From the IMG/VR virus record IMGVR_UViG_2579778634_000020: DNA of 46,724 nucleotides. One strand, given 5' to 3'. This document shows, piece after piece, positions 21,400 to 34,925 of this stretch. This stretch comes from a virus. Taxonomy: Duplodnaviria > Heunggongvirae > Uroviricota > Caudoviricetes. Position numbers and translations under genes: made by a program. The notes below the pieces were generated by a model. It had not been told where the DNA came from. It ran no database searches and worked only from the letters and a program-made list of their open reading frames with translations. The stretch's first letter is position 1. Each line of letters begins with the position of its first letter.

Positions 21400-22710
21400 T
21401 TAAATCCGAAGTGATGTGACTCTTCCGGTCGGTTTGACAATAGGGAATTGCTTAACGATGAAATAACCTCCGGCATCATTCGGGTGATCATTGCCAGATT
21501 TTTTATCAGGCTCCCCCTTATCATCCCAGACCTGTTGCTCCAGAGATTCGGCATATACCGGACAACGCTTCACATTAACTTTATAGCGACGCTCACCATT
21601 GGCATTGCAGAACATTGCATTCATTGAGTTAACGCGATCTTTTACTGGCGGGTTCGAGCTGTTCACCACAACGTTAAAACCAGCCTGCTTAAGCTGGGCT
21701 ATATCCGTCGTACTTGCGTTACTTGATTTTCTGGAATCTCCGGAAGCATCTGGATAAATATAAATCTCCCTCACTTTCCGGTAATCATTCCCGTCATACA
21801 GCCAGAAGCGTTCTTTAATGATGCGGATCATATCCGGCGTATCGTAGGCATTGATGATTTCAGTTACCGCACATGGAAGCCCCAAACGCAGCACATGGAC
21901 GATCCCCGCCATCTTTCCAACGTTAAAATCCATCCCAATATAAATCGGCTCCCCTGGCTGCTCCACTTCTTCGCAATTATTCAGTTTCCGGTCAAACTGA
22001 TGGTAAACAGTACCACTTGTCAGGTTAGTAAACTGTCCTCGAAGATAGGCTTTAATCAGCTCTGGAGGGTATGATTCAAGAAGCGAAGGAATGTAATCTG
22101 CTGGCAGGTTCTTTTCATTATCGAAAGTAGATGCCTGCACCAGACCATACAGTGAGGCCAGCTCTGTTTTTTCACGCACGGCTTTAACAAACTGCTCGTA
22201 GACAAATTTGAATCCTTCCGGCGTGGTTGTAACGTCAATACCGTTGCGAAGTCCATCAATCTTATAACGCATACGCGCAATTATCTTGCGCCACGCCGTT
22301 CTGGCTTTTTCCTTCGGCAAAATGTCCAGTTCATCCACCAGCGCATTACCAATTTTGAAACCGACGATCGTTTGTGGCTTCTCCATCGATCTGCAGATAG
22401 TGGTTCCCCGATACTGGCGTCCGTAATAAAAGTGAACCTCTTTATTTCCCTCATTAATTTTTACGTTCAATCCCCAGTCAGCAGCAACTTCTTCCACTGT
22501 AGGGTAAAAAATATCGCGAATTTGGGGATACGTTGGCGCAAAATATCCCTGATTTATACCTGGATGCTCCCAAATCCCCTTGCATATGCCGCCACACCCA
22601 ACCCATGTTTTGCCCGAGCCAAAACCAGCAATATAGGCTTTAAATTTATGGGGCATTGAAAGAAATCGCGCCTGAGGCACATTAAGCGTCGGAGAGATCA
22701 TCTTCATCAC
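21400..22710 (-). CDS. Terminase large subunit
   Basis: 436 aa; N-terminal Walker A-like GFGSGKT and a C-terminal nuclease-like acidic region. Upstream of portal. Confidence 0.9.
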   Translation of the reverse strand: MMKMISPTLNVPQARFLSMPHKFKAYIAGFGSGKTWVGCGGICKGIWEHPGINQGYFAPTYPQIRDIFYPTVEEVAADWGLNVKINEGNKEVHFYYGRQYRGTTICRSMEKPQTIVGFKIGNALVDELDILPKEKARTAWRKIIARMRYKIDGLRNGIDVTTTPEGFKFVYEQFVKAVREKTELASLYGLVQASTFDNEKNLPADYIPSLLESYPPELIKAYLRGQFTNLTSGTVYHQFDRKLNNCEEVEQPGEPIYIGMDFNVGKMAGIVHVLRLGLPCAVTEIINAYDTPDMIRIIKERFWLYDGNDYRKVREIYIYPDASGDSRKSSNASTTDIAQLKQAGFNVVVNSSNPPVKDRVNSMNAMFCNANGERRYKVNVKRCPVYAESLEQQVWDDKGEPDKKSGNDHPNDAGGYFIVKQFPIVKPTGRVTSLRI

Positions 22711-23776
22711 TCCTTACTCTGGCATCAACCACATTAATATTGATCGCCACAGGCTGGGGATGTTCATTATCTTCCACCGTTTCGATCTCTTTGCGCAGCT
22801 TCTGGTTTTCCATTCTGCGCCGTTCAATTTCCAGTTCCTGTAGCCGTTTATCTGCACATAAAGCCCCGCCAGCAGAAAACAAACGCAACAATTCACGCCG
22901 GGCGGCAGCCTTATCCTCCAGCAGGATCTCAACGCCGAATTTTCCGAATTTTGCCCCTGCATATAATTGCCGCGCATCCCCATCAAGCAGAGTGGTATCA
23001 GCCATATAAAGCTGTCCCGTTCCCTCACCGCAGCACTTCGGGCAGTCCGGATTGGGTATGGCGTTATCAACAAAGCCGAGGCCTCCATATTCCGGTTCGG
23101 GTTTGCCATCTCTGGAAGCCTGCGCCGCTGCCTTGTCGAATTCTGCTATATCGCGCCACTGGTAGAGATGATTCTCGCCCCAGCAATAACGGCAGTTAAC
23201 ACGGCGAAATTGTGCAAGCTGATTGGGGTCGGCCAGGACAATGGCCATCAACTGACTCACCAGTAAATCCAGGTCTGCGGTATAGCGTTTCTGGTACTGA
23301 TTGCGGAAGTAGCTGATAGCGCGAAAAACCCTGGCATTTCTAAGCATACGACTGGCGTTGCTGTTAGCTGTCGCACCTTGCCCCTCATAACCGGCTAGTC
23401 GGTACGCCTCTGTCGGCTTTTTCCCCTGAGCAACAAGCATCGCAAACTTAGCCTGCTGGTCAGAAATGCCGAATTCATCGGGACAGAACGAAAATTCCTC
23501 CGCGTCGCCCTCATTCAGGCCCGCATCGAATACTGGCTTTTTTTCCTGAGATTTTTCGTTCCGCTTTTGTGCAGTCTGCGCAGATTTTTTCTGCGCACTT
23601 TTTTGCGCAGTTTTGCGCATTTCTGTCTGCGCATTTTTCGGAGGTTTTTTGATGTAACGACGGGCTGTTGCGTAATTCAGTCCCCTTGCTTCACACCATG
23701 CCACCGGAGATATACCGGAGCGGGTGTATTCAGCAATATACTCCTGCTGCAACGCCCCCCAGTCCGGTCTGCTCAT
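22682..23776 (-). CDS. Putative terminase small subunit / DNA-recognition component
   Basis: 364 aa with an N-terminal HTH-like segment (…YIAEYTRSGISPVAWCEARGLNYATARRYIKK…), basic linker, Cys cluster (CRYC…CPKCCGEG) and C-terminal coiled coil. Overlaps the large terminase start. Confidence 0.55.
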   Translation of the reverse strand: MSRPDWGALQQEYIAEYTRSGISPVAWCEARGLNYATARRYIKKPPKNAQTEMRKTAQKSAQKKSAQTAQKRNEKSQEKKPVFDAGLNEGDAEEFSFCPDEFGISDQQAKFAMLVAQGKKPTEAYRLAGYEGQGATANSNASRMLRNARVFRAISYFRNQYQKRYTADLDLLVSQLMAIVLADPNQLAQFRRVNCRYCWGENHLYQWRDIAEFDKAAAQASRDGKPEPEYGGLGFVDNAIPNPDCPKCCGEGTGQLYMADTTLLDGDARQLYAGAKFGKFGVEILLEDKAAARRELLRLFSAGGALCADKRLQELEIERRRMENQKLRKEIETVEDNEHPQPVAININVVDARVRSDEDDLSDA

Positions 23777-23779
23777 CAG

Positions 23780-24031
23780 TTAGTCCTGATTTTTATCCAC
23801 CCTGAGTAGTTCGCGCAGAGCAAAGGCATCCCCTTTTCTGGCAAGCTTAAACAATGCCGCTCGTAACTCGGCTTCACCTTTCGCTCTGCCCTTACGGATG
23901 GCCGCATAAAAATCTGTCATTGCTTCCCGATTTTCTTTCAGTCGGTTCAGATCAACATCCAGAACGTCAGCGATTTGTTGTGCAGTCATCCGGCACGCTG
24001 CCAGAGACTCGACTTTCGAATACGGAATCAT
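23780..24031 (-). CDS. Small HTH-like protein upstream of the terminase genes
   Basis: 83-aa ORF (…MTAQQIADVLDVDLNRLKENREAMTDFYAAIRKGRAKGEAELRAALFKLARKGDAFALRELL…). The start overlaps the 3' end of the upstream gene, so the true start may be internal. Confidence 0.45.
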   Translation of the reverse strand: MIPYSKVESLAACRMTAQQIADVLDVDLNRLKENREAMTDFYAAIRKGRAKGEAELRAALFKLARKGDAFALRELLRVDKNQD

Positions 24032-24899
24032 TTGTCACCCCTATTGATATGCAGGGTGTCTTCTTCCTGTATTTTTCGTGAAGGATTTTTACTGCAGCGT
24101 TGTTCCAGGTGACCTGATGGTGAATGCGTTTATGGCTGGCACCCATCAGTGAGATTTTTACGCACGACGGCGCATACATGACGGAGTAAAAACTTTTAAC
24201 GTAGGTTCCGGAATCCAGATACAGCTCGGTCATTCCGCCGCTGTTTTTCTGCGTCTGTTTCTGCCCTAACTGGACAGCACCGATCGTCATGAACAATTCA
24301 CCACAGCGACCGAGATTCGTGTACGTATTCACATCCTCGTTAATGCGCCCCATGAATGAGAACGGTCGATCAACCGAACAGATAAAGCTGTTCATTGCCT
24401 TGCGTTTCACCCACGAAGCATGGCCGCCATTGTCACCAAGAAAATCCCCGCCCTGCGACATAGCGATGGAAAGAGCAGGTATTGATTCGTAGTACGCCAG
24501 CATTTCAGAAAGGATCGCATCCAGTTTCCTTATCGGAAAATAGGCCTGGTCATAGTTGCGATCCACCCGAAACTGGAACTCGTGATAATCATCATCGAGC
24601 TGAATGAAGTATTTACACCCGACCAGTTTTGCCAGGTCGAAACAGGCATTACGGGCGTAAAAAATTGAGCGGCGGTCACCGAAATTATCGGCTTCGTCAA
24701 AACGACTGGCGATATCGGCTTTGGAAAACACCAGCACCTGTTCACCAAATTCAGCCATGTACTGATGCCGTGTCTTATCTTCATCATCAACAACGATAAA
24801 AATTTTCCCGGTATAGCCAGCACGACGCAACGTCCGGTAAGTCAGAACTTTGTCCGGTCGCCCGTGAGTCAGAATAAAGGCGCAAAAATCATCACGCAT
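23967..24899 (-). CDS. Uncharacterised soluble protein with GT-A-fold glycosyltransferase-like motifs
   Basis: Start ATG at 24899 with strong RBS GAGGAGGAGG. N-terminal pattern FCAFILTHGRPD … KIFIVVDDEDKT … KYFIQLDDDYHEF resembles the beta1 / DD / DxD layout of GT-A nucleotide-sugar transferases. No predicted TM helices. Motif-level inference only. Confidence 0.45.
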   Translation of the reverse strand: MRDDFCAFILTHGRPDKVLTYRTLRRAGYTGKIFIVVDDEDKTRHQYMAEFGEQVLVFSKADIASRFDEADNFGDRRSIFYARNACFDLAKLVGCKYFIQLDDDYHEFQFRVDRNYDQAYFPIRKLDAILSEMLAYYESIPALSIAMSQGGDFLGDNGGHASWVKRKAMNSFICSVDRPFSFMGRINEDVNTYTNLGRCGELFMTIGAVQLGQKQTQKNSGGMTELYLDSGTYVKSFYSVMYAPSCVKISLMGASHKRIHHQVTWNNAAVKILHEKYRKKTPCISIGVTNDSVFESRVSGSVPDDCTTNR

Positions 24900-25683
24900 A
24901 TTCCTCCTCCTCACCACCATGCATGATCTCCACCATGCGCTGCGTCATCCGGACAAATCCATTTTCAATAGCCTGCTGATAATCAATGATCACCAGCGCC
25001 GACTCCTCGAAAAAACACTGAATTTCAGCGGGGGCGTGAGCGTAATAGTCCGCAATTCTGCTGAAATTAAACACCGTGTGACGTTCTGCCGCACACAGGA
25101 GGAATTTCTCAATATCAGGCTCAAGAGACGCCGAACGTATCCGGCTGATCAGCTCCTGAGTTTTCGTATCGTCGTACAGTTCACTGATATCCGGTTTACC
25201 GCCCGACGGCTCATAAACAGGCGTATCAATTTTCGTCGTATACGGCTCCTCCTCATTTCCTGTACCGGGCAAAACATCCGTCAACAGTTCATCAATTTCT
25301 GTCGGGATGAAGCCTGTCAGGGAGACATCAAAATCAGCATTGATTAGGTCCGACAGCTCCATCCGCAACAGATCTTCATCCCAGCCAGCATTCATCGGCA
25401 GGCGATTATCTGCCAGGCGGTACGCCTTTTTCTGCTCATCCGTCAGGCCAGACAGAACAATGACCGGAACAGAATCCATTTTGAGCATTTCAGCCGCCAT
25501 AACACGACCGTGACCCGCAATAATTTCGCCCTTTTCGTCAATCAGCACCGGATTAGTCCAGCCGAATTGCTTAATACTTTCTACCAGTTGTGCCACCTGC
25601 TCAGTACTGTGCGTCCTGGCGTTGTGCGCATACGGTGACAATTCTTGTAATGGGCGATAGACTATCTTTAATTTCTCGCTCAT
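24892..25683 (-). CDS. ParB N-terminal-domain (ParB/Srx-fold) nuclease-like protein
   Basis: 263 aa. N-terminus …IVYRPLQELSPYAHNARTHSTEQVAQLVESIKQFGWTNPVLIDEKGEIIAGHGRVMAA… carries the ParB-box GHGR motif. Same position as ynaK beside trkG in K-12 Rac (from memory). Confidence 0.8.
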   Translation of the reverse strand: MSEKLKIVYRPLQELSPYAHNARTHSTEQVAQLVESIKQFGWTNPVLIDEKGEIIAGHGRVMAAEMLKMDSVPVIVLSGLTDEQKKAYRLADNRLPMNAGWDEDLLRMELSDLINADFDVSLTGFIPTEIDELLTDVLPGTGNEEEPYTTKIDTPVYEPSGGKPDISELYDDTKTQELISRIRSASLEPDIEKFLLCAAERHTVFNFSRIADYYAHAPAEIQCFFEESALVIIDYQQAIENGFVRMTQRMVEIMHGGEEEEYA

Positions 25684-25702: not shown

Positions 25703-25734
25703 AAAACGCACCCCAGCAGCCAGTGCTACTGGGG
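25703..25734 (-). terminator. Rho-independent terminator downstream of trkG
   Basis: Minus strand CCCCAGTAG-CACTGG-CTGCTGGGG (one G-U pair) followed by TGCGTTTTATT. Confidence 0.55.
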
Positions 25735-25820
25735 ACGGAGGTATTGCTGGTAAAGTTAGGTATTGGATCAATGAGTGAGTCAACATAATATTAAACTCAC
25801 AATTATAAATCAGCCATATA

Positions 25821-27278
25821 TTAGGAGCGCCAAAAAAAACCTGAAAACAATATAATAACAGGATAAATTTCAAGGCGACCAAGAATCATAGCTATGCACA
25901 TTAAACATTTTGCAATGTCATTAAGCACTCCGAATGACGATGCAGTAGCCCCAAAACCTAATCCCATATTATTAATACATGCAGCCACTGTTGCAAATGA
26001 TGTAAGAAAATCATATCCCATACCATTTAACACCAGTATAAAAAACACCGTGAAGAGAGTATAAAGAAAAAAGAAACTCCATACAGACCTCATTACACGA
26101 TCTGTAACTATCTTCCCTCCTACATTTACACTCAACAACGCTCTGGGATGAGAAAGCTGATTTATCTCGTGTTTGCTTTGTTTGAAAAGTATAAGAAATC
26201 GAAGTGACTTAATTCCACCACAAGTTGAACCTATACATCCCCCAAAGAAACTTGACAACAGCAAAAACACTATCGTGTGCGTGGGCCAACTTGCATAATC
26301 CTGCGTAGCTAAACCATTATCAGTGAGCATGGAGCTGGCAAGAAAAAACGAATGAATAAAACTTCCATGCAAGTCATACATACCTATATGCCAGACCTGG
26401 AAAGAGGTAACAATGATCACCCCTAAGGCTATTAACAGAAAGAAACGAAGTTCAATATCTCTGATTAAAGGTTTTATCGTTTTCCTGCTAATAACAATAT
26501 ACCAAAGAGTGAAGTTGAAAGCCGATAGCAGGGAAAAAGAACCAGCCACCAGCTCAACCAAATAGTTATTAAAATATCCGATACTCTCGCTATGAGTTGA
26601 GAAACCACCAAGCGAAACTGTGGAAATCCCGTGACAAATAGCATCAAACAAAGGCATTCCTGCAAGTCTATAACAGACAATACAAGCAATACCTAATAAA
26701 GAATAAGTTATCCACAGTGTCCGTGACGTATCGGCCAGGCGGGGAGTGAGTTTGTCATCCTTAAATGGCCCCGGCATTTCTGACTGATAAAGCTTTGCAC
26801 CACCAATACCCAATAATGGCAATACAGCAACCGCCAGAACAATAACTCCTAAACCACCTATAAAATTTAACTGTGACCGATAGTACAAATATGCCCGAGG
26901 TAATGAACTAACATCATCAATTACAGTTGCTCCTGTTGTTGTTATTCCAGAAACCCCTTCAAACAGAGCATCAATGAACGTTAAATTAAGTTCTGAGTCA
27001 ATCCATAAAGGGAATGCACTAATAACAGAAAACAAAATCCAAAACATTACAATTATAATAAACCCATCACGGGTACGTAATTGAATGCCAGATTTCTTAG
27101 TTGTATACCACGCTCCGCCACCAATGCAAAAAAATATAACGAAAGTTATAAAGAAAACGAACAGGCTTTTTTCTTTATAAAACAATGCTACAACCATTGG
27201 TGGCAACATTGAAAGACTATAGAGCCAAACCAGGAACCCACACATATGAGTAACAACTCTTACATGAGATGTATTCAT
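25821..27278 (-). CDS. trkG: Trk-system potassium uptake protein TrkG, prophage cargo
   Basis: Translation from the ATG at 27278 (MNTSHVRVVTHMCGFLVWLYSLSMLPPMVVALFYKEK…) matches Rac-encoded TrkG as I recall it. Multi-pass membrane protein. Noticeably AT-rich codon usage, own AT-rich upstream region and own terminator. Confidence 0.9.
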   Translation of the reverse strand: MNTSHVRVVTHMCGFLVWLYSLSMLPPMVVALFYKEKSLFVFFITFVIFFCIGGGAWYTTKKSGIQLRTRDGFIIIVMFWILFSVISAFPLWIDSELNLTFIDALFEGVSGITTTGATVIDDVSSLPRAYLYYRSQLNFIGGLGVIVLAVAVLPLLGIGGAKLYQSEMPGPFKDDKLTPRLADTSRTLWITYSLLGIACIVCYRLAGMPLFDAICHGISTVSLGGFSTHSESIGYFNNYLVELVAGSFSLLSAFNFTLWYIVISRKTIKPLIRDIELRFFLLIALGVIIVTSFQVWHIGMYDLHGSFIHSFFLASSMLTDNGLATQDYASWPTHTIVFLLLSSFFGGCIGSTCGGIKSLRFLILFKQSKHEINQLSHPRALLSVNVGGKIVTDRVMRSVWSFFFLYTLFTVFFILVLNGMGYDFLTSFATVAACINNMGLGFGATASSFGVLNDIAKCLMCIAMILGRLEIYPVIILFSGFFWRS

Positions 27279-27415
27279 ATCTAAATATTCTTTCAATTAT
27301 AACCACCTTGCTGCAATATTATGATTATACTGTATAAAATTTAACTCCTCTTAGATCTTACTTCACTGTTCCTTATGAAACAATCATCAAAATGAATCAT
27401 ATTGTAGTTAAGATT

Positions 27416-32031: not shown

Positions 32032-33861
32032 ATGAGCACTTCCGCATACAAGAGCAAAATTCGAACACTCCAGTGCGCGTTAAAAAACGGTGAATTTGAA
32101 CCATTCATACAACATATCCGTTTTCCATACTTTAAAAATATAGAGCAGAATGCAAGGATCGATTTTCAGTTCCCTATAACGGCTTTAGTAGGAAAAAATG
32201 GAACTAATAAAAGTTCTGTTATCAAAGCGCTATTTGGTTGCCCACATGGTAAAAATATAACTCGTTATTGGTTCACAACTGAAACAGATGAGTTTCCTGA
32301 CCTAAAACTTGCTGATGGCAGTTCTCTTAAACCTAGATATATATATGGATATAAAAATGCTGATGGCCGTTTAGTTGAAATACTCCAAGCACGTATCAAT
32401 GCTACCAAGAAAACAATCGATTATTGGGAAACAAGTCGACCATCTGTTGGTGATAACATGGAGAGTATTTCGGATGATCTGGGTGCTAATAGTAATGCAA
32501 CCAGATGGAAAAAAATCAAGAAGGGATTGGTTTTCCTAGATTTCAGATCGGAAATAAGTGCATTTGATAGATGTATGTATCACTCTGATTTTAAATTAAG
32601 AAAGAAGAAGAGTGGTGTATTAATTACAAAGCAAGACTATATCAGAAGCAAATCTAAATATATAAAGAAAGCTTTTGATGAAAAGCTAAGTAATTTAAGA
32701 CTCTGGGGGGCGGAAACCATTGTTAAAAATATAACCTTGGCGCCAGAACTAGTTGAGCACGTCTCATTTATATTAGGGAAAAAATATAAAGTCATTAAAT
32801 TTCTTGAGCATCGGTTATTTGGAACCAGAGGAGGAACCGCTTTACTTTCAACTGATAAGTTGAACTATACAGAAGCGTTTGCTGGAAGTGGTGAATTTGC
32901 AATAGTTTCACTAATACTCAATATTTATTCGGCCAAACCTAATTCATTAATTCTTCTTGACGAACCAGAAGTTTCACTTCACCCTGGTGCACAAAAAAGG
33001 ATGATGGATGTTCTGTACTCTATTGTTGAGCAGAAAAAACATCAAGTGGTAATATCAACCCATTCTCCTGTTATTGTGAACACTCTTCCCAAAGATGCCA
33101 TTAAATTATTTGTTTTTGATGAAGAGAGTGAAACAGCTAAAATAGTTCAAAATATAGCACCGGATGAAGCTTTTATAGAGCTAGGGCATGATATTAACAA
33201 GAAAACAATAATTGTAGAAGATAAATTAGCTAAAGCAATTATAGATAAAGCGATTAAAAATGATGAAAGATTAAGCTTATCATTTAGTGTAAGTTATATA
33301 CCAGGTGGTTCGGAGACCATTTTAAGCAAGCATCTTCCCAGTTACGCTGTGGTAGAACGCAATGATATTTTGTTTTTACTTGATGGTGATAAAAACAAAA
33401 AAATAAAACCAGTAAGAATTAGTGAAATTGCTGATGCTGATTTAGTTAATACAATGTGCAAATATTATGGTTGCGAGTTAATTATCAATGCCAGTGGTAG
33501 TAATGGCAAAAAAAATGAACAAGAATCTAATAGACTCAAAAGGCAAGTGCTTGAGTATGCATTCAATAAAGTGCAGTATTTACCATTTGATACTCCCGAA
33601 CAATTACTCATTGAAAAGGCAATTACGCCAAGTGAAAAAGAAATAATTGATTCACAGACCTGGAGTTCTAATGATCCAGAACTGTATAAGAATCAAATAA
33701 GATTATTAGCGCAACACCTGTATGATAAAGAAGAAGTAAATGCAGAGGAAATTTTTTGCCTCCAACAAATGATGACCGCAAGACTTAAAAATGAATTGCC
33801 TGAATTTATAAAAATAAGAAAAATAATTACTCAGGCTCTTGACCGTGGTATCATTAGGTAG
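32032..33861 (+). CDS. OLD-family-like nuclease candidate: ABC-type ATPase with a C-terminal TOPRIM-like region
   Basis: 609 aa. P-loop variant LVGKNGTNKSSV (54-62), Walker B and D-loop LILLDEPEVSLHP, H-loop VVISTHSP; C-terminal TIIVEDKLAKAII … ILFLLDGDKNKK gives a conserved Glu and a DxD about 55 residues apart as in TOPRIM. Architecture and size resemble P2 Old / GajA-like proteins. Visibly AT-rich gene. Confidence 0.7.
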   Translation: MSTSAYKSKIRTLQCALKNGEFEPFIQHIRFPYFKNIEQNARIDFQFPITALVGKNGTNKSSVIKALFGCPHGKNITRYWFTTETDEFPDLKLADGSSLKPRYIYGYKNADGRLVEILQARINATKKTIDYWETSRPSVGDNMESISDDLGANSNATRWKKIKKGLVFLDFRSEISAFDRCMYHSDFKLRKKKSGVLITKQDYIRSKSKYIKKAFDEKLSNLRLWGAETIVKNITLAPELVEHVSFILGKKYKVIKFLEHRLFGTRGGTALLSTDKLNYTEAFAGSGEFAIVSLILNIYSAKPNSLILLDEPEVSLHPGAQKRMMDVLYSIVEQKKHQVVISTHSPVIVNTLPKDAIKLFVFDEESETAKIVQNIAPDEAFIELGHDINKKTIIVEDKLAKAIIDKAIKNDERLSLSFSVSYIPGGSETILSKHLPSYAVVERNDILFLLDGDKNKKIKPVRISEIADADLVNTMCKYYGCELIINASGSNGKKNEQESNRLKRQVLEYAFNKVQYLPFDTPEQLLIEKAITPSEKEIIDSQTWSSNDPELYKNQIRLLAQHLYDKEEVNAEEIFCLQQMMTARLKNELPEFIKIRKIITQALDRGIIR

Positions 33862-33884
33862 TGATTCTGGATGCAGAGGGAAAA

Positions 33885-34925
33885 ATGAAAAAAATCAAAG
33901 TGTTTGACTTCTTTTCCGGTTGTGGTGGAACCAGCCAAGGTTTCCATCAAGCTGGAATGGATATTGTTTTTGGCCTCGATTTCGACGTTGATGCAGCCAG
34001 TTCATTTCGTGCAAATTTCCCGCAGGCTGCTTTTATTAACTCGGACATTAGGTTAATCGACAACAATGCCATAAACAAGTTAGTAAAAAAACATCGTAAT
34101 GATTACATTCTTTTTTCAGGATGTGCGCCTTGTCAACCGTACTCTAAGCAAAACTCAAATAAGAAAAATGATGATCCACGATTAGATCTATTAAAGGAAT
34201 TCAGTCGCTTTGTAGAGCATTATATGCCTGATTTTATTTTTGTTGAAAACGTGCCAGGAATGCAAAAGTTTAACAAAAATGAAGGAACATTCATGATGTT
34301 TTTAGAAATGCTTTCATCAAAGGGATATAGTGTAGATTATAAAGTAATGCCAGCTGCGTGGTACGGTGTACCACAGACGCGAGAAAGATTAGTGCTCATT
34401 GCATCCAAGGATTTTTATGTCGCATTGCCTTCTCCTACACATGGGGTTGGAAATACTCCCTATTCAACAGTAAAGGACTGGATCGCTAATTTACCGAAGA
34501 TAGAAGCAGGAGAAAAGCATAATAGTATTCCTGATCATGAAGCTGCACGCTTATCAGAGCTTAATTTACGTAGAATAAAATGCACTCCTGAAGGTGGAAG
34601 TCGAGAATTTTGGCCAGATGAATTGATTTTAGAATGCCATCGTAACCATAAAGGGCATACAGACGTATATGGACGTTTGAGTTGGGACAAACCAGCCAGC
34701 GGACTAACAACTCGTTGTATTAGCTATTCAAATGGACGTTTTGGACATCCAACACAAAATCGAGCAATATCGGTTCGTGAAGCAGCGTGTCTACAAACAT
34801 TTCCTTTGGATTATAAATTTATTGGTTCTTTGCAATCTCGGGCTCGTCAAATAGGAAATGCGGTCCCTCCGAAGATGTCTGAAACGATTGGAAAACATTT
34901 GCTTAATATAATCAAAGCCTCCTAG
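33885..34925 (+). CDS. DNA (cytosine-5)-methyltransferase
   Basis: Motif I FDFFSGCGGTSQGF, motif IV GCAPCQPYS (catalytic PC), motif VI ENV, motif VIII QTRER, motif X GNAVPP. ATG at 33885 with RBS AGAGGG; an in-frame GTG at 33861 overlaps the upstream TAG. Confidence 0.9.
   Translation: MKKIKVFDFFSGCGGTSQGFHQAGMDIVFGLDFDVDAASSFRANFPQAAFINSDIRLIDNNAINKLVKKHRNDYILFSGCAPCQPYSKQNSNKKNDDPRLDLLKEFSRFVEHYMPDFIFVENVPGMQKFNKNEGTFMMFLEMLSSKGYSVDYKVMPAAWYGVPQTRERLVLIASKDFYVALPSPTHGVGNTPYSTVKDWIANLPKIEAGEKHNSIPDHEAARLSELNLRRIKCTPEGGSREFWPDELILECHRNHKGHTDVYGRLSWDKPASGLTTRCISYSNGRFGHPTQNRAISVREAACLQTFPLDYKFIGSLQSRARQIGNAVPPKMSETIGKHLLNIIKAS

What the first reader, a model, noticed from the sequence alone, without database searches (positions are those of the whole stretch)
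23967..25683. ParB-like nuclease-domain protein coupled to a soluble GT-A-like protein beside the terminase genes
The ParB N-terminal-domain protein (GHGR motif) is immediately followed, with a 2-nt gap and a strong GAGGAGGAGG RBS, by a protein whose N-terminus carries the GT-A glycosyltransferase pattern: beta1 FILTHGRPD, DD in FIVVDDEDK, DxD in IQLDDDYHEF. In K-12 Rac only a short ynaK remnant remains at this position, from memory. ParB/Srx-fold proteins recur in phage DNA-modification and packaging contexts, so a ParB-like plus nucleotide-sugar-transferase-like pair next to the packaging genes could be a DNA modification or anti-restriction module. This is a hypothesis from motifs and context.
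Basis: inference. Interest (0 to 1): 0.55.

Follow-up and report, generated by a model that had tools for sequence, protein, structure and literature searches.

The report
Prophage ParB-adaptor plus glycosyltransferase gene pair
Just upstream of its DNA-packaging genes, this Rac-type E. coli prophage carries an intact sugar-transferring enzyme and a dedicated ParB-like partner; the pair is conserved in viruses of many bacterial phyla and archaea and probably decorates phage DNA with sugar, but nobody has tested this and the chemical target is unknown.

Summary
On the minus strand, a 263-aa ParB/Srx-fold protein (24892-25683) overlaps by 8 nt a 310-aa protein (23967-24899). The second protein is a confident member of Pfam TAGT, the "TET-associated glycosyltransferase"/GREB1-like family, and its model has a GT-A fold with a conserved DDD motif.

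The two genes are an obligate pair. The partner sits directly upstream of TAGT in 86/88 viral loci, and at least its C-terminal domain is present in 77/77 usable genome loci from many phyla. A large terminase usually follows. This matches the published, purely computational "ParB-terminase locus" concept.

- No TET/JBP dioxygenase or other handle-making enzyme accompanies the pair.
- The partner has three parts: a ParB domain of the kind fused to phage DNA methyltransferases, a near-invariant linker motif, and a TAGT-specific C-terminal domain that can occur alone.

Best reading: an adaptor-dependent, late-expressed DNA glycosyltransferase (confidence 0.5). Main rival: protein glycosylation, possibly of the partner's own linker.

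This is a new member of a known, predicted kind, with moderate interest. It is easily testable, because 866 of 5426 complete E. coli genomes carry it.

The parts
24892..25683 (-). ParB/Srx-fold adaptor protein (ynaK full-length form), 263 aa including stop
25279..25683 (-). N-terminal ParB/Srx nucleotide-binding-type domain (residues ~1-135), GHGR box at residues 57-60
   Evidence: Same subtype as the N-terminus of ParB-fused DNA methyltransferases: PHROG 498 at 9e-51 and PADLOC MTase_II at 1.7e-38. Across 86 non-redundant full-length partners: N21 100%, G57 100%, R60 91%, N93 98%. The canonical Glu of the GERR box is replaced by His or Asn.
25204..25245 (-). Linker motif PYTTKIDTPVYEPS (residues 147-160), predicted disordered
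   Evidence: pLDDT below 50, yet near-invariant in 96-97 aligned non-redundant partners: Y148 99%, T/S149 99%, P155 100%, Y157 99%.
24895..25203 (-). Helical C-terminal domain specific to TAGT partners (residues 161-263)
   Evidence: No Pfam or structural match. R201, A211, Y214 and D234 are 100% conserved; E226 and G242 are 99%. Occurs alone as 132-147-aa ORFs upstream of TAGT in Vibrio jumbo phages and several bacterial phyla. All 28 phage records that have it also have TAGT.
24903..24912 (-). Shine-Dalgarno GAGGAGGAGG for the glycosyltransferase gene, inside the end of the ParB-like ORF
   Evidence: Read directly from the sequence.
23967..24899 (-). TAGT-family (GREB1-related) GT-A glycosyltransferase, 310 aa including stop; overlaps the ParB stop by 8 nt
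25711..25734 (-). Terminator-like hairpin after the trkG moron, 28 nt before the ParB-like start codon
   Evidence: 10-bp stem with 7 GC pairs, followed by a T tract. This implies the pair is transcribed by read-through as part of the late operon (inference).
23780..24031 (-). Small ORF (83 aa longest; PGAP aa) between the glycosyltransferase and TerS; overlaps the low-confidence tail of the glycosyltransferase
   Evidence: PHROG 309 terminase-small-subunit segment at 8e-23. Annotated as hypothetical in RefSeq.
21400..23776 (-). Terminase small (22682-23776) and large (21400-22710) subunits, the downstream context that defines the ParB-terminase locus
   Evidence: Pfam Terminase_2, Terminase_6N and Terminase_6C.

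Best explanation
The two genes form one functional module in the late operon of a Rac-type lambdoid prophage.

Gene 2 is a catalytically intact, nucleotide-sugar-dependent GT-A glycosyltransferase of the TAGT/GREB1-like family.

Gene 1 is its dedicated adaptor, with three parts:
- a ParB/Srx nucleotide-binding-type domain of the subtype that phages fuse to DNA methyltransferases;
- a short, near-invariant linker motif (Y-[T/S]-x-K-x3-P-x-Y);
- a helical C-terminal domain found only beside TAGT genes.

The C-terminal half most likely docks or activates the glycosyltransferase. The ParB domain most likely brings it onto double-stranded phage DNA late in infection, just before or during packaging. 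Sugars would then be added post-replicatively, and the packaged genome would be protected from restriction or other nucleases.

Shown here: fold, family membership, conserved catalytic residues, obligate gene pairing, position next to terminases, and absence of a TET/JBP partner.

Inferred: physical interaction of the two proteins, DNA as the acceptor, timing, and the protective role. The acceptor atom is unknown, because no hydroxymethyl-pyrimidine source is encoded.
For: - Obligate pairing: the partner is adjacent upstream, with overlapping stop and start codons, in 86/88 viral loci. It is present in all 77 usable loci of a phylogenetically broad genome set. Named examples are Lactobacillus, Nocardia and Porphyromonas phages and haloarchaeal virus HHTV-2.
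- Reciprocal exclusivity: 28/28 phage records with the C-terminal domain also carry TAGT.
- The C-terminal domain alone suffices as neighbour in Vibrio jumbo phages and elsewhere.
- Downstream genes are large terminases of at least four Pfam types, plus portals.
- The ParB N-domain matches the N-termini of ParB-fused DNA methyltransferases.
- Other TET-less TAGTs are coupled to Mom-family DNA-modification proteins.
- TAGT is fused to sugar-tailoring-type methyltransferases or a sulfotransferase, or duplicated in tandem.
- Literature: T6 TAGT is proposed to add the second glucose on glucosyl-hmC DNA (PMC13390438). ParB-like proteins activate cognate phage thymine dioxygenases on dsDNA (PMC13229309). 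Enzymes in the ParB-terminase locus are predicted to modify DNA during packaging (PMC4738411).
Against: - No enzyme that could create a hydroxyl acceptor on DNA is found in the window or beside the pair in other phages. That covers TET/JBP, hydroxymethylases and kinases. Canonical DNA bases have no hydroxyl, and every characterised family member uses a hydroxyl acceptor.
- One family member, GREB1, glycosylates a protein (PMC7968844).
- No DNA modification has been reported for any phage carrying the pair; I found none in the library.
- No natural ParB-TAGT fusion was seen among the 145 closest 50%-cluster representatives scanned.
- The partner has no recognisable DNA-binding HTH.
- The Box II arginine is missing in about 9% of partners, and the whole ParB domain is dispensable in some lineages.
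Confidence: 0.5

Rival explanations
1. Protein glycosylation. The glycosyltransferase O-glycosylates a protein rather than DNA. The most economical target is its own partner, at the near-invariant hydroxyl residues of the disordered linker (Y148, T/S149, Y157). Another packaging or virion protein is also possible. The sugar would then regulate the ParB-like protein's role at the packaging step.
For: - The linker is predicted disordered yet almost invariant across 96-97 non-redundant partners; Y148, T/S149, P155 and Y157 are each at least 99% conserved. That pattern is typical of a substrate or docking peptide.
- The linker plus C-terminal domain, not the ParB domain, is the part obligately tied to TAGT.
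- GREB1, a TAGT-family enzyme, O-GlcNAcylates a protein.
- No DNA acceptor handle is encoded.
Against: - All other genomic associations of the family are with DNA-modifying enzymes: TET/JBP by name, Mom, and T-even hmC pathways.
- The ParB N-domain subtype is the one fused to DNA methyltransferases.
- Tandem TAGTs and fused sugar-tailoring domains fit hypermodification pathways at least as well.
Confidence: 0.2
2. Classical TAGT chemistry on hydroxymethyl-pyrimidines supplied from elsewhere. For example, the enzyme acts on hmC or hmU DNA of co-infecting phages, or on bases made by an unrecognised, highly divergent oxidase encoded in the phage or host.
For: - Characterised relatives act on hmU, or on glucosyl-hmC (JGT from general knowledge).
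- The PNAS 2026 study notes thousands of 5mYOX-like sequences that escape the Pfam TET/JBP model.
- This particular window carries a C5-cytosine methyltransferase.
Against: - That methyltransferase belongs to an opposite-strand nuclease/methylase moron present in only 32 genomes, against 866 for the pair.
- No dioxygenase-like gene appeared among the 25 most frequent Pfam families reported for the flanking genes of 38 viral and 74 genome loci.
- Many hosts are strict anaerobes (Clostridia, Veillonella, Bacteroidota), where O2-dependent oxidation is not available (inference).
- Phages as small as 31 kb carry only the pair.
Confidence: 0.1
3. A packaging accessory without glycosyl transfer. The ParB-like protein acts as a nuclease or DNA-handling factor for terminase, by analogy with the HNH proteins found beside terminases. 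The GT-like protein would be structural or inactive, or the pair would be a decaying remnant in this prophage.
For: - The position directly upstream of TerS/TerL is conserved across terminase types.
- ParB_N was historically annotated as a nuclease domain.
- Rac is often defective, and many E. coli copies are truncated: 1604 records match but only 866 cover at least 80%.
Against: - The DDD motif and other catalytic-type residues are invariant over very large distances.
- Both ORFs here are full length and 99-100% identical to copies in induced, sequenced phages.
- Expanded loci add a second TAGT and sugar-tailoring-type enzymes. This argues for real glycan chemistry.
Confidence: 0.07

Closest known systems
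TAGT / GREB1-like glycosyltransferases (Pfam PF20691): T6-type second-glucose transferase, trypanosome base-J glucosyltransferase, human GREB1
   Same: Same Pfam family at full model length. GT-A fold with the DDD motif. RefSeq now names the E. coli gene 'GREB1-related protein'. T6 TAGT is proposed to add a second glucose to glucosyl-hmC in DNA.
   Different: There is no TET/JBP, no hmC/hmU pathway and no first-step glucosyltransferase in the prophage. This clade instead has an obligate ParB-like partner and sits beside terminase genes. T4-like members lack the partner and carry a ~100-aa N-terminal extension. GREB1 acts on a protein.
ParB-terminase large subunit (ParB-Tls) loci of phages and prophages (Iyer, Aravind and co-workers)
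   Same: Gene order: a ParB-fold gene, an embedded nucleic-acid-modifying enzyme, then terminase. [quoted passage not shown]
   Different: The concept is purely computational. The held texts describe methyltransferases in these loci; I could not retrieve the 2013 paper to check whether the TAGT version is listed. The partner's TAGT-specific C-terminal domain, which can occur without the ParB domain, is not mentioned in the texts I could read.
ParB-dependent phage thymine dioxygenases (5mYOX176/ParB176; O'Toole et al. 2026)
   Same: A small ParB-like protein with a nucleotide-binding domain plus a C-terminal domain and no obvious DNA-binding domain. It is encoded next to a DNA-modifying enzyme, near terminases, and is required for that enzyme's activity on dsDNA.
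   Different: The client enzyme here is a glycosyltransferase, not a dioxygenase. Homology of the C-terminal domains could not be tested, because no sequences were available. Activation is inferred here, not shown.
ParB-N6/N4 DNA methyltransferase fusions of prophages
   Same: The N-terminal ~140 residues match the ParB module of these fusions very strongly: PHROG 498 at 9e-51 and PADLOC MTase_II at 1.7e-38. They share the genomic niche and are enriched in prophages (PMC12704722).
   Different: Here the ParB module is a separate polypeptide joined to a TAGT-specific domain instead of being fused to the enzyme, and the chemistry is glycosyl transfer rather than methyl transfer.
Chromosome- or plasmid-partition ParB (Spo0J, KorB)
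   Same: ParB/Srx fold and Box II/III remnants: G57, R60, N93.
   Different: There is no HTH DNA-binding domain and no ParA gene. The catalytic Glu of the GERR box is replaced by His or Asn in 84 of 86 partners. The NCBIfam partition models score far below their cutoffs.

Membership tests
TAGT / GREB1-like glycosyltransferase (Pfam PF20691) | Sequence match to the family model above the curated threshold | tested here: met
   121.5 bits against a cutoff of 27.5, E 6e-35, model positions 4-205 of 205. Homologs are precomputed as PF20691.
TAGT / GREB1-like glycosyltransferase (Pfam PF20691) | GT-A nucleotide-sugar transferase fold with an acidic DxD-type motif | tested here: met
TAGT / GREB1-like glycosyltransferase (Pfam PF20691) | Genomic association with a TET/JBP (5mYOX) dioxygenase | tested here: not met
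   RefSeq annotations of matching prophages show no dioxygenase. It is also absent from the Pfam families reported (top 25) for all window ORFs and for genes flanking the pair in 38 viral and 74 genome loci.
TAGT / GREB1-like glycosyltransferase (Pfam PF20691) | Transfers a sugar to hydroxymethyl-pyrimidine, or to its sugar, in DNA | not testable with these tools
   Needs nucleoside mass spectrometry or enzyme assays.
ParB-terminase (ParB-Tls) DNA-modification locus | A ParB-fold gene and a large terminase gene, co-directional, flanking a modifying enzyme | tested here: met
   Order on the minus strand: ParB-like 25683-24892, GT 24899-23967, small ORF, TerS, TerL 22710-21400. The same order occurs in phages of four bacterial phyla; in archaeal virus HHTV-2 the large terminase lies about 3 kb downstream.
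ParB-terminase (ParB-Tls) DNA-modification locus | Phage DNA is modified in connection with packaging | not testable with these tools
   This is a prediction in the literature. No experiment was found.
Partition-type ParB CTPase | ParB N-terminal fold with a GERR Box II that includes the catalytic Glu | tested here: not met
   The fold is present, but Box II reads GHGR. Glu occupies that position in 1 of 86 partners; the Arg is kept in 91%.
Partition-type ParB CTPase | Central HTH DNA-binding domain and a ParA partner | tested here: not met
   Only ParB_N is detected. NCBIfam parB_part scores 38 bits against a cutoff of 58. No ParA appears among the 25 Pfam families reported for the window ORFs.
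ParB-like activator of a DNA-modifying enzyme (5mYOX-ParB type) | Nucleotide-binding domain plus C-terminal domain, no DNA-binding domain, encoded beside a cognate enzyme | tested here: inconclusive
   The architecture and adjacency fit. Homology to 5mYOX-associated ParBs could not be checked because no sequences are held.
ParB-like activator of a DNA-modifying enzyme (5mYOX-ParB type) | The partner is required for enzyme activity on dsDNA | not testable with these tools
   Requires co-expression or in vitro reconstitution.

The most novel reading that the evidence does not exclude
The ParB-adaptor/TAGT pair glycosylates DNA that carries no hydroxymethyl handle. The sugar would go directly onto a canonical base (for example an exocyclic amine) or onto another native DNA position, guided along dsDNA by the ParB module at the time of packaging. 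This would be a new kind of DNA modification, present in about one in six complete E. coli genomes and in phages of anaerobes, where oxygen-dependent TET chemistry is impossible.
Probability: 0.2. Interest if true: 0.85.

Novelty: new member of a known kind. Interest (0 to 1): 0.45.

Why it matters
- If the pair does modify DNA, it would be a TET-independent route to glycosylated phage DNA. It is widespread in temperate phages of gut bacteria, including about 16% of complete E. coli genomes, and so is relevant to restriction evasion, type IV restriction targeting, phage therapy host range and sequencing artefacts.
- It would also extend the recently shown principle that ParB-like proteins activate DNA-modifying enzymes from dioxygenases to glycosyltransferases.
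- Because the system sits in a Rac-type prophage of E. coli, the open question of what the acceptor is becomes directly testable with standard genetics and nucleoside mass spectrometry.
- If the enzyme instead glycosylates its partner's linker, that would be an unexpected protein-level control of a packaging-associated ParB protein.

Tried and rejected
1. A TET/JBP or other hydroxylase in the prophage. None appears in RefSeq annotation or in the reported (25 most frequent) Pfam families for all window ORFs.
2. The C5-cytosine methyltransferase at 33861-34925 as a pathway partner. Rejected: it is paired with an OLD/AAA_21-type nuclease on the opposite strand, and that cassette occurs in only 32 genomes against 866 for the pair.
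3. ParB-TAGT gene fusions as Rosetta-stone evidence. None was found among 145 representatives. The long TAGTs are instead fused to SAM methyltransferases or a sulfotransferase, are tandem TAGTs, or carry unannotated N-terminal extensions.
4. Resemblance of the N-terminal extension of T4-like TAGTs (MPRYEPK in Aeh1) to the partner's linker motif. Not significant (HMM score -2.9) and only loosely kept in phage 65. Left as an unexplained hint.
5. Subtyping the radical SAM enzymes that follow TAGT in 9 loci. Only generic core matches were found, far below family cutoffs.
7. Retrieving Iyer et al. 2013 (the founding TAGT paper) and the sequences of 5mYOX-associated ParBs. Neither is held.
8. Defence-system membership. 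TAGT has no PADLOC hit.
9. A literature search for reported DNA modification in carrier phages found nothing useful.
Full report
**What is in the sequence.** The finding lies on the minus strand of a Rac-type lambdoid prophage.
- The gene order, read 5'->3' on the minus strand, is: lysis genes, the trkG moron, ParB-like, glycosyltransferase-like, small ORF, TerS, TerL, portal, and then head and tail genes.
- The ParB-like ORF (24892-25683, 263 aa) matches Pfam ParB_N and PHROG 620.
- The second ORF starts at the ATG at 24899. This is supported by the consensus N-terminus MRDDF... of 45 homologs. It ends at 23967 (310 aa).
- Its start overlaps the ParB stop by 8 nt (ATGCGTGA). It is preceded by GAGGAGGAGG.
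- A strong terminator-like hairpin closes the trkG moron 28 nt upstream of the ParB start. The pair is therefore probably transcribed by antiterminated late read-through (inference).

**Identity of the two proteins.**
- *Glycosyltransferase.* Gene 2 hits Pfam PF20691 (TAGT, TET-associated glycosyltransferase) over the whole model at E 6e-35, and PHROG 842 at 8.6e-104. Recent RefSeq annotation calls it "GREB1-related protein".
- Eight homologs, from E. coli to a T4-like Aeromonas phage (24-48% identity), keep R14, D68, R83, D102/D103, D189, K235 and H260/H261 invariant. The enzyme therefore looks active.
- This N-domain is the subtype found at the N-terminus of ParB-fused DNA methyltransferases: PHROG 498 at 9e-51 and PADLOC MTase_II at 1.7e-38.
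- The rest is a disordered linker followed by a helical C-terminal domain with no Pfam or structural match.

**The pair is a conserved module.**
- In E. coli the 2-kb region is present at 80% coverage or more in 866 of 5426 complete genomes, and in ten sequenced induced phages.
- Homologs of the glycosyltransferase at 28-47% identity occur in Lactobacillus, Nocardia and Porphyromonas phages and in haloarchaeal virus HHTV-2. Each has a ParB-like gene immediately upstream with overlapping stop and start codons. In the bacterial phages terminase genes lie directly or within two small ORFs downstream; in HHTV-2 the large terminase lies about 3 kb downstream.
- The partners share both the ParB domain and the distinctive C-terminal half.
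- In 80 IMG/VR loci plus the reference phages, a partner HMM hit lies directly upstream in 86 of 88 loci.
- An independent scan of one genome per species gave 110 relatives at 41-53% identity. Hosts include Clostridia, Veillonella, Bacteroidota, Kiritimatiellae, Planctomycetota, Acidobacteriota, Chlorobi, Verrucomicrobia, Saccharibacteria and an archaeal MAG.
- Of the 79 of those loci in which TAGT was detected, 59 have the full partner adjacent, 12 have only the C-terminal domain, 5 have the partner one gene away, and 2 are cut by contig ends.
- Reciprocally, all 28 phage records that contain the C-terminal domain also contain TAGT.
- Downstream genes are large terminases of several unrelated Pfam types (Terminase_6N, Terminase_3, TerL_ATPase, GpA, T7-like), plus small terminases and portals. 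Upstream genes are lysis or replication genes.
- The family is large: at least 8000 clusters at 90% identity (the scoring cap), and 1329 clusters at 50% identity.

**Anatomy of the partner.**
- In Vibrio jumbo phages and in several Bacteroidota, Cloacimonadota and Firmicutes loci, the upstream ORF is only 132-147 aa long. It covers just the linker and C-terminal domain, and no ParB-domain gene lies within 4 kb.
- The linker and C-terminal domain are therefore the part tied to the enzyme. The ParB domain is an add-on.
- Conservation across 100 non-redundant partners:
  - ParB domain: N21 and G57 100%, R60 91%, N93 98%. The catalytic Glu of the canonical GERR box is replaced by His or Asn.
  - Linker: Y148 99%, T/S149 99%, P155 100%, Y157 99%, although this region is predicted disordered.
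  - C-terminal domain: R201, A211, Y214 and D234 100%; E226 and G242 99%.

**What is missing.** No TET/JBP dioxygenase, hydroxymethylase or kinase is encoded in the window or next to the pair elsewhere. For the batch scans, only the 25 most frequent families are reported. The window does carry a C5-cytosine methyltransferase (33861-34925). It is part of an opposite-strand nuclease/methylase moron found in only 32 genomes, so it is unrelated.

**Hints from relatives.**
- A second TAGT clade (~400 aa with an N-terminal extension) is followed by a Mom-family DNA-modification gene on ~38-kb marine phage contigs.
- Some TAGTs are fused to SAM methyltransferases or a sulfotransferase.
- Clostridial prophages carry ParB, two tandem TAGTs, a radical SAM enzyme, TerS and TerL in that order. 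The radical SAM enzyme could not be subtyped.
- These point to multi-step glycan-type hypermodification in a DNA-modification setting.

**Literature.**
- T6 TAGT is proposed to add the second glucose to glucosyl-hmC (PMC13390438).
- GREB1 O-GlcNAcylates a protein (PMC7968844).
- ParB-like proteins with a nucleotide-binding and a C-terminal domain, but no DNA-binding domain, activate cognate phage thymine dioxygenases on dsDNA (PMC13229309).
- Iyer et al. describe "ParB-terminase large subunit loci" whose enzymes are predicted to modify DNA during packaging (PMC4738411).
- A 2025 survey of the ParB-CTPase fold mentions neither glycosyltransferases nor terminases (PMC12704722).
- The founding 2013 TAGT paper was not available.

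**Interpretation.**
- *Best-supported model (confidence 0.5):* a late-expressed, adaptor-dependent DNA glycosyltransferase. The linker and C-terminal domain engage the enzyme. The ParB module brings it to dsDNA around packaging. The sugar protects the packaged genome.
- *Weak point:* the acceptor. Known family members need a hydroxyl, and none is provided on DNA here.
- *Main rival (0.2):* protein glycosylation, most simply of the partner's own invariant Tyr/Thr linker.
- *Lesser rivals:* use of hydroxymethyl bases supplied from elsewhere (0.1), and a non-catalytic packaging role or decay (0.07).

**Verdict.**
- The module belongs to a kind already predicted computationally, and the genes already carry family-level names. 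I therefore rate it a new member of a known kind, with moderate interest (0.45).
- Three points were not found in the texts I could read: the TAGT-specific C-terminal adaptor domain, which can stand alone; the near-invariant linker motif; and the consistent absence of any handle-making enzyme.
- These make the acceptor question sharp, and it is testable in E. coli.

Noticed in passing
window 32032-34925 (+): An opposite-strand two-gene cassette. The first gene is a 609-aa AAA_21/OLD/PtuA/AriA-like ATP-dependent nuclease. The second is a 354-aa C5-cytosine DNA methyltransferase with overlapping stop and start. Only 32 of 5426 complete E. coli genomes carry it, at a slot where other Rac variants carry a different two-gene insert. 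It looks like a variable restriction-modification-like defence moron.
   Followed up: partly
window 25711-27296 (-): The trkG potassium-transporter moron sits between the lysis genes and the ParB-like gene. It ends in a strong terminator-like hairpin (25734-25711) just 28 nt before the ParB-like start codon.
   Followed up: partly
window 23780-24031 (-): A small ORF (69-83 aa) between the glycosyltransferase and TerS matches a segment of a terminase-small-subunit PHROG (phrog_309, 8e-23). It overlaps the poorly conserved, low-confidence 25-aa C-terminal tail that is specific to the E. coli glycosyltransferase. Similar ~85-aa ORFs follow TAGT in other enterobacterial loci.
   Followed up: no
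L092:6001-7792, also L093 and L094 (marine ~38-kb phage contigs): A 403-aa TAGT with an N-terminal extension is followed, with overlap, by a Mom-family protein (PF25680). There is no ParB or terminase nearby. This is a different TET-less pairing of TAGT with a DNA-modification enzyme.
   Followed up: partly
L132:2397-7747, also L141, L144, L136, L127, L130, L121, L103, L129, L169: Prophages of anaerobic Clostridia and Blautia carry expanded modules: ParB-like, TAGT, a second TAGT, a ~320-aa radical SAM enzyme (CNNxCxYC motif, twitch/SPASM-like tail), TerS and TerL. The radical SAM enzyme could not be assigned to any curated subfamily. It might tailor the sugar or create the acceptor.
   Followed up: partly
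L007:5459-5878 (Vibrio phage pv27), also L100, L153, L158, L161, L172: The partner occurs as a stand-alone 132-147-aa protein containing only the linker motif and C-terminal domain, with no ParB domain. In the Vibrio jumbo phages the pair lies among replication genes rather than next to the terminase.
   Followed up: yes
L009:3689-4050 (Aeromonas phage Aeh1), L091:1177-1540 (phage 65): The N-terminal extensions of T4-like TAGTs contain PWDHWQQMPRYEPK (Aeh1) and DWVGMPAFKQEK (phage 65). These loosely resemble the partner's linker motif (Y-T-x-K-x3-P-x-Y-E-P). The match is not statistically significant, so it may be chance.
   Followed up: partly
P0248, P0251, P0285, P0286, P0267, P0268 and L084:7001-8716: Long TAGT proteins are fused to class I SAM methyltransferase domains, to a Sulfotransfer_2 domain, or to a second TAGT domain. 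Others have 180-270-aa N-terminal extensions with no Pfam match.
   Followed up: partly
E. coli genomes; proteins P0194, P0204, P0227, P0235: About half of the E. coli records that match the region carry only part of it (1604 matching records, 866 with at least 80% coverage). Several predicted proteins are chimeras of the ParB-like N-terminus with Lom/Ail, terminase or tail fragments. These reflect different deletion end-points of Rac decay, as in K-12 ynaK.
   Followed up: no
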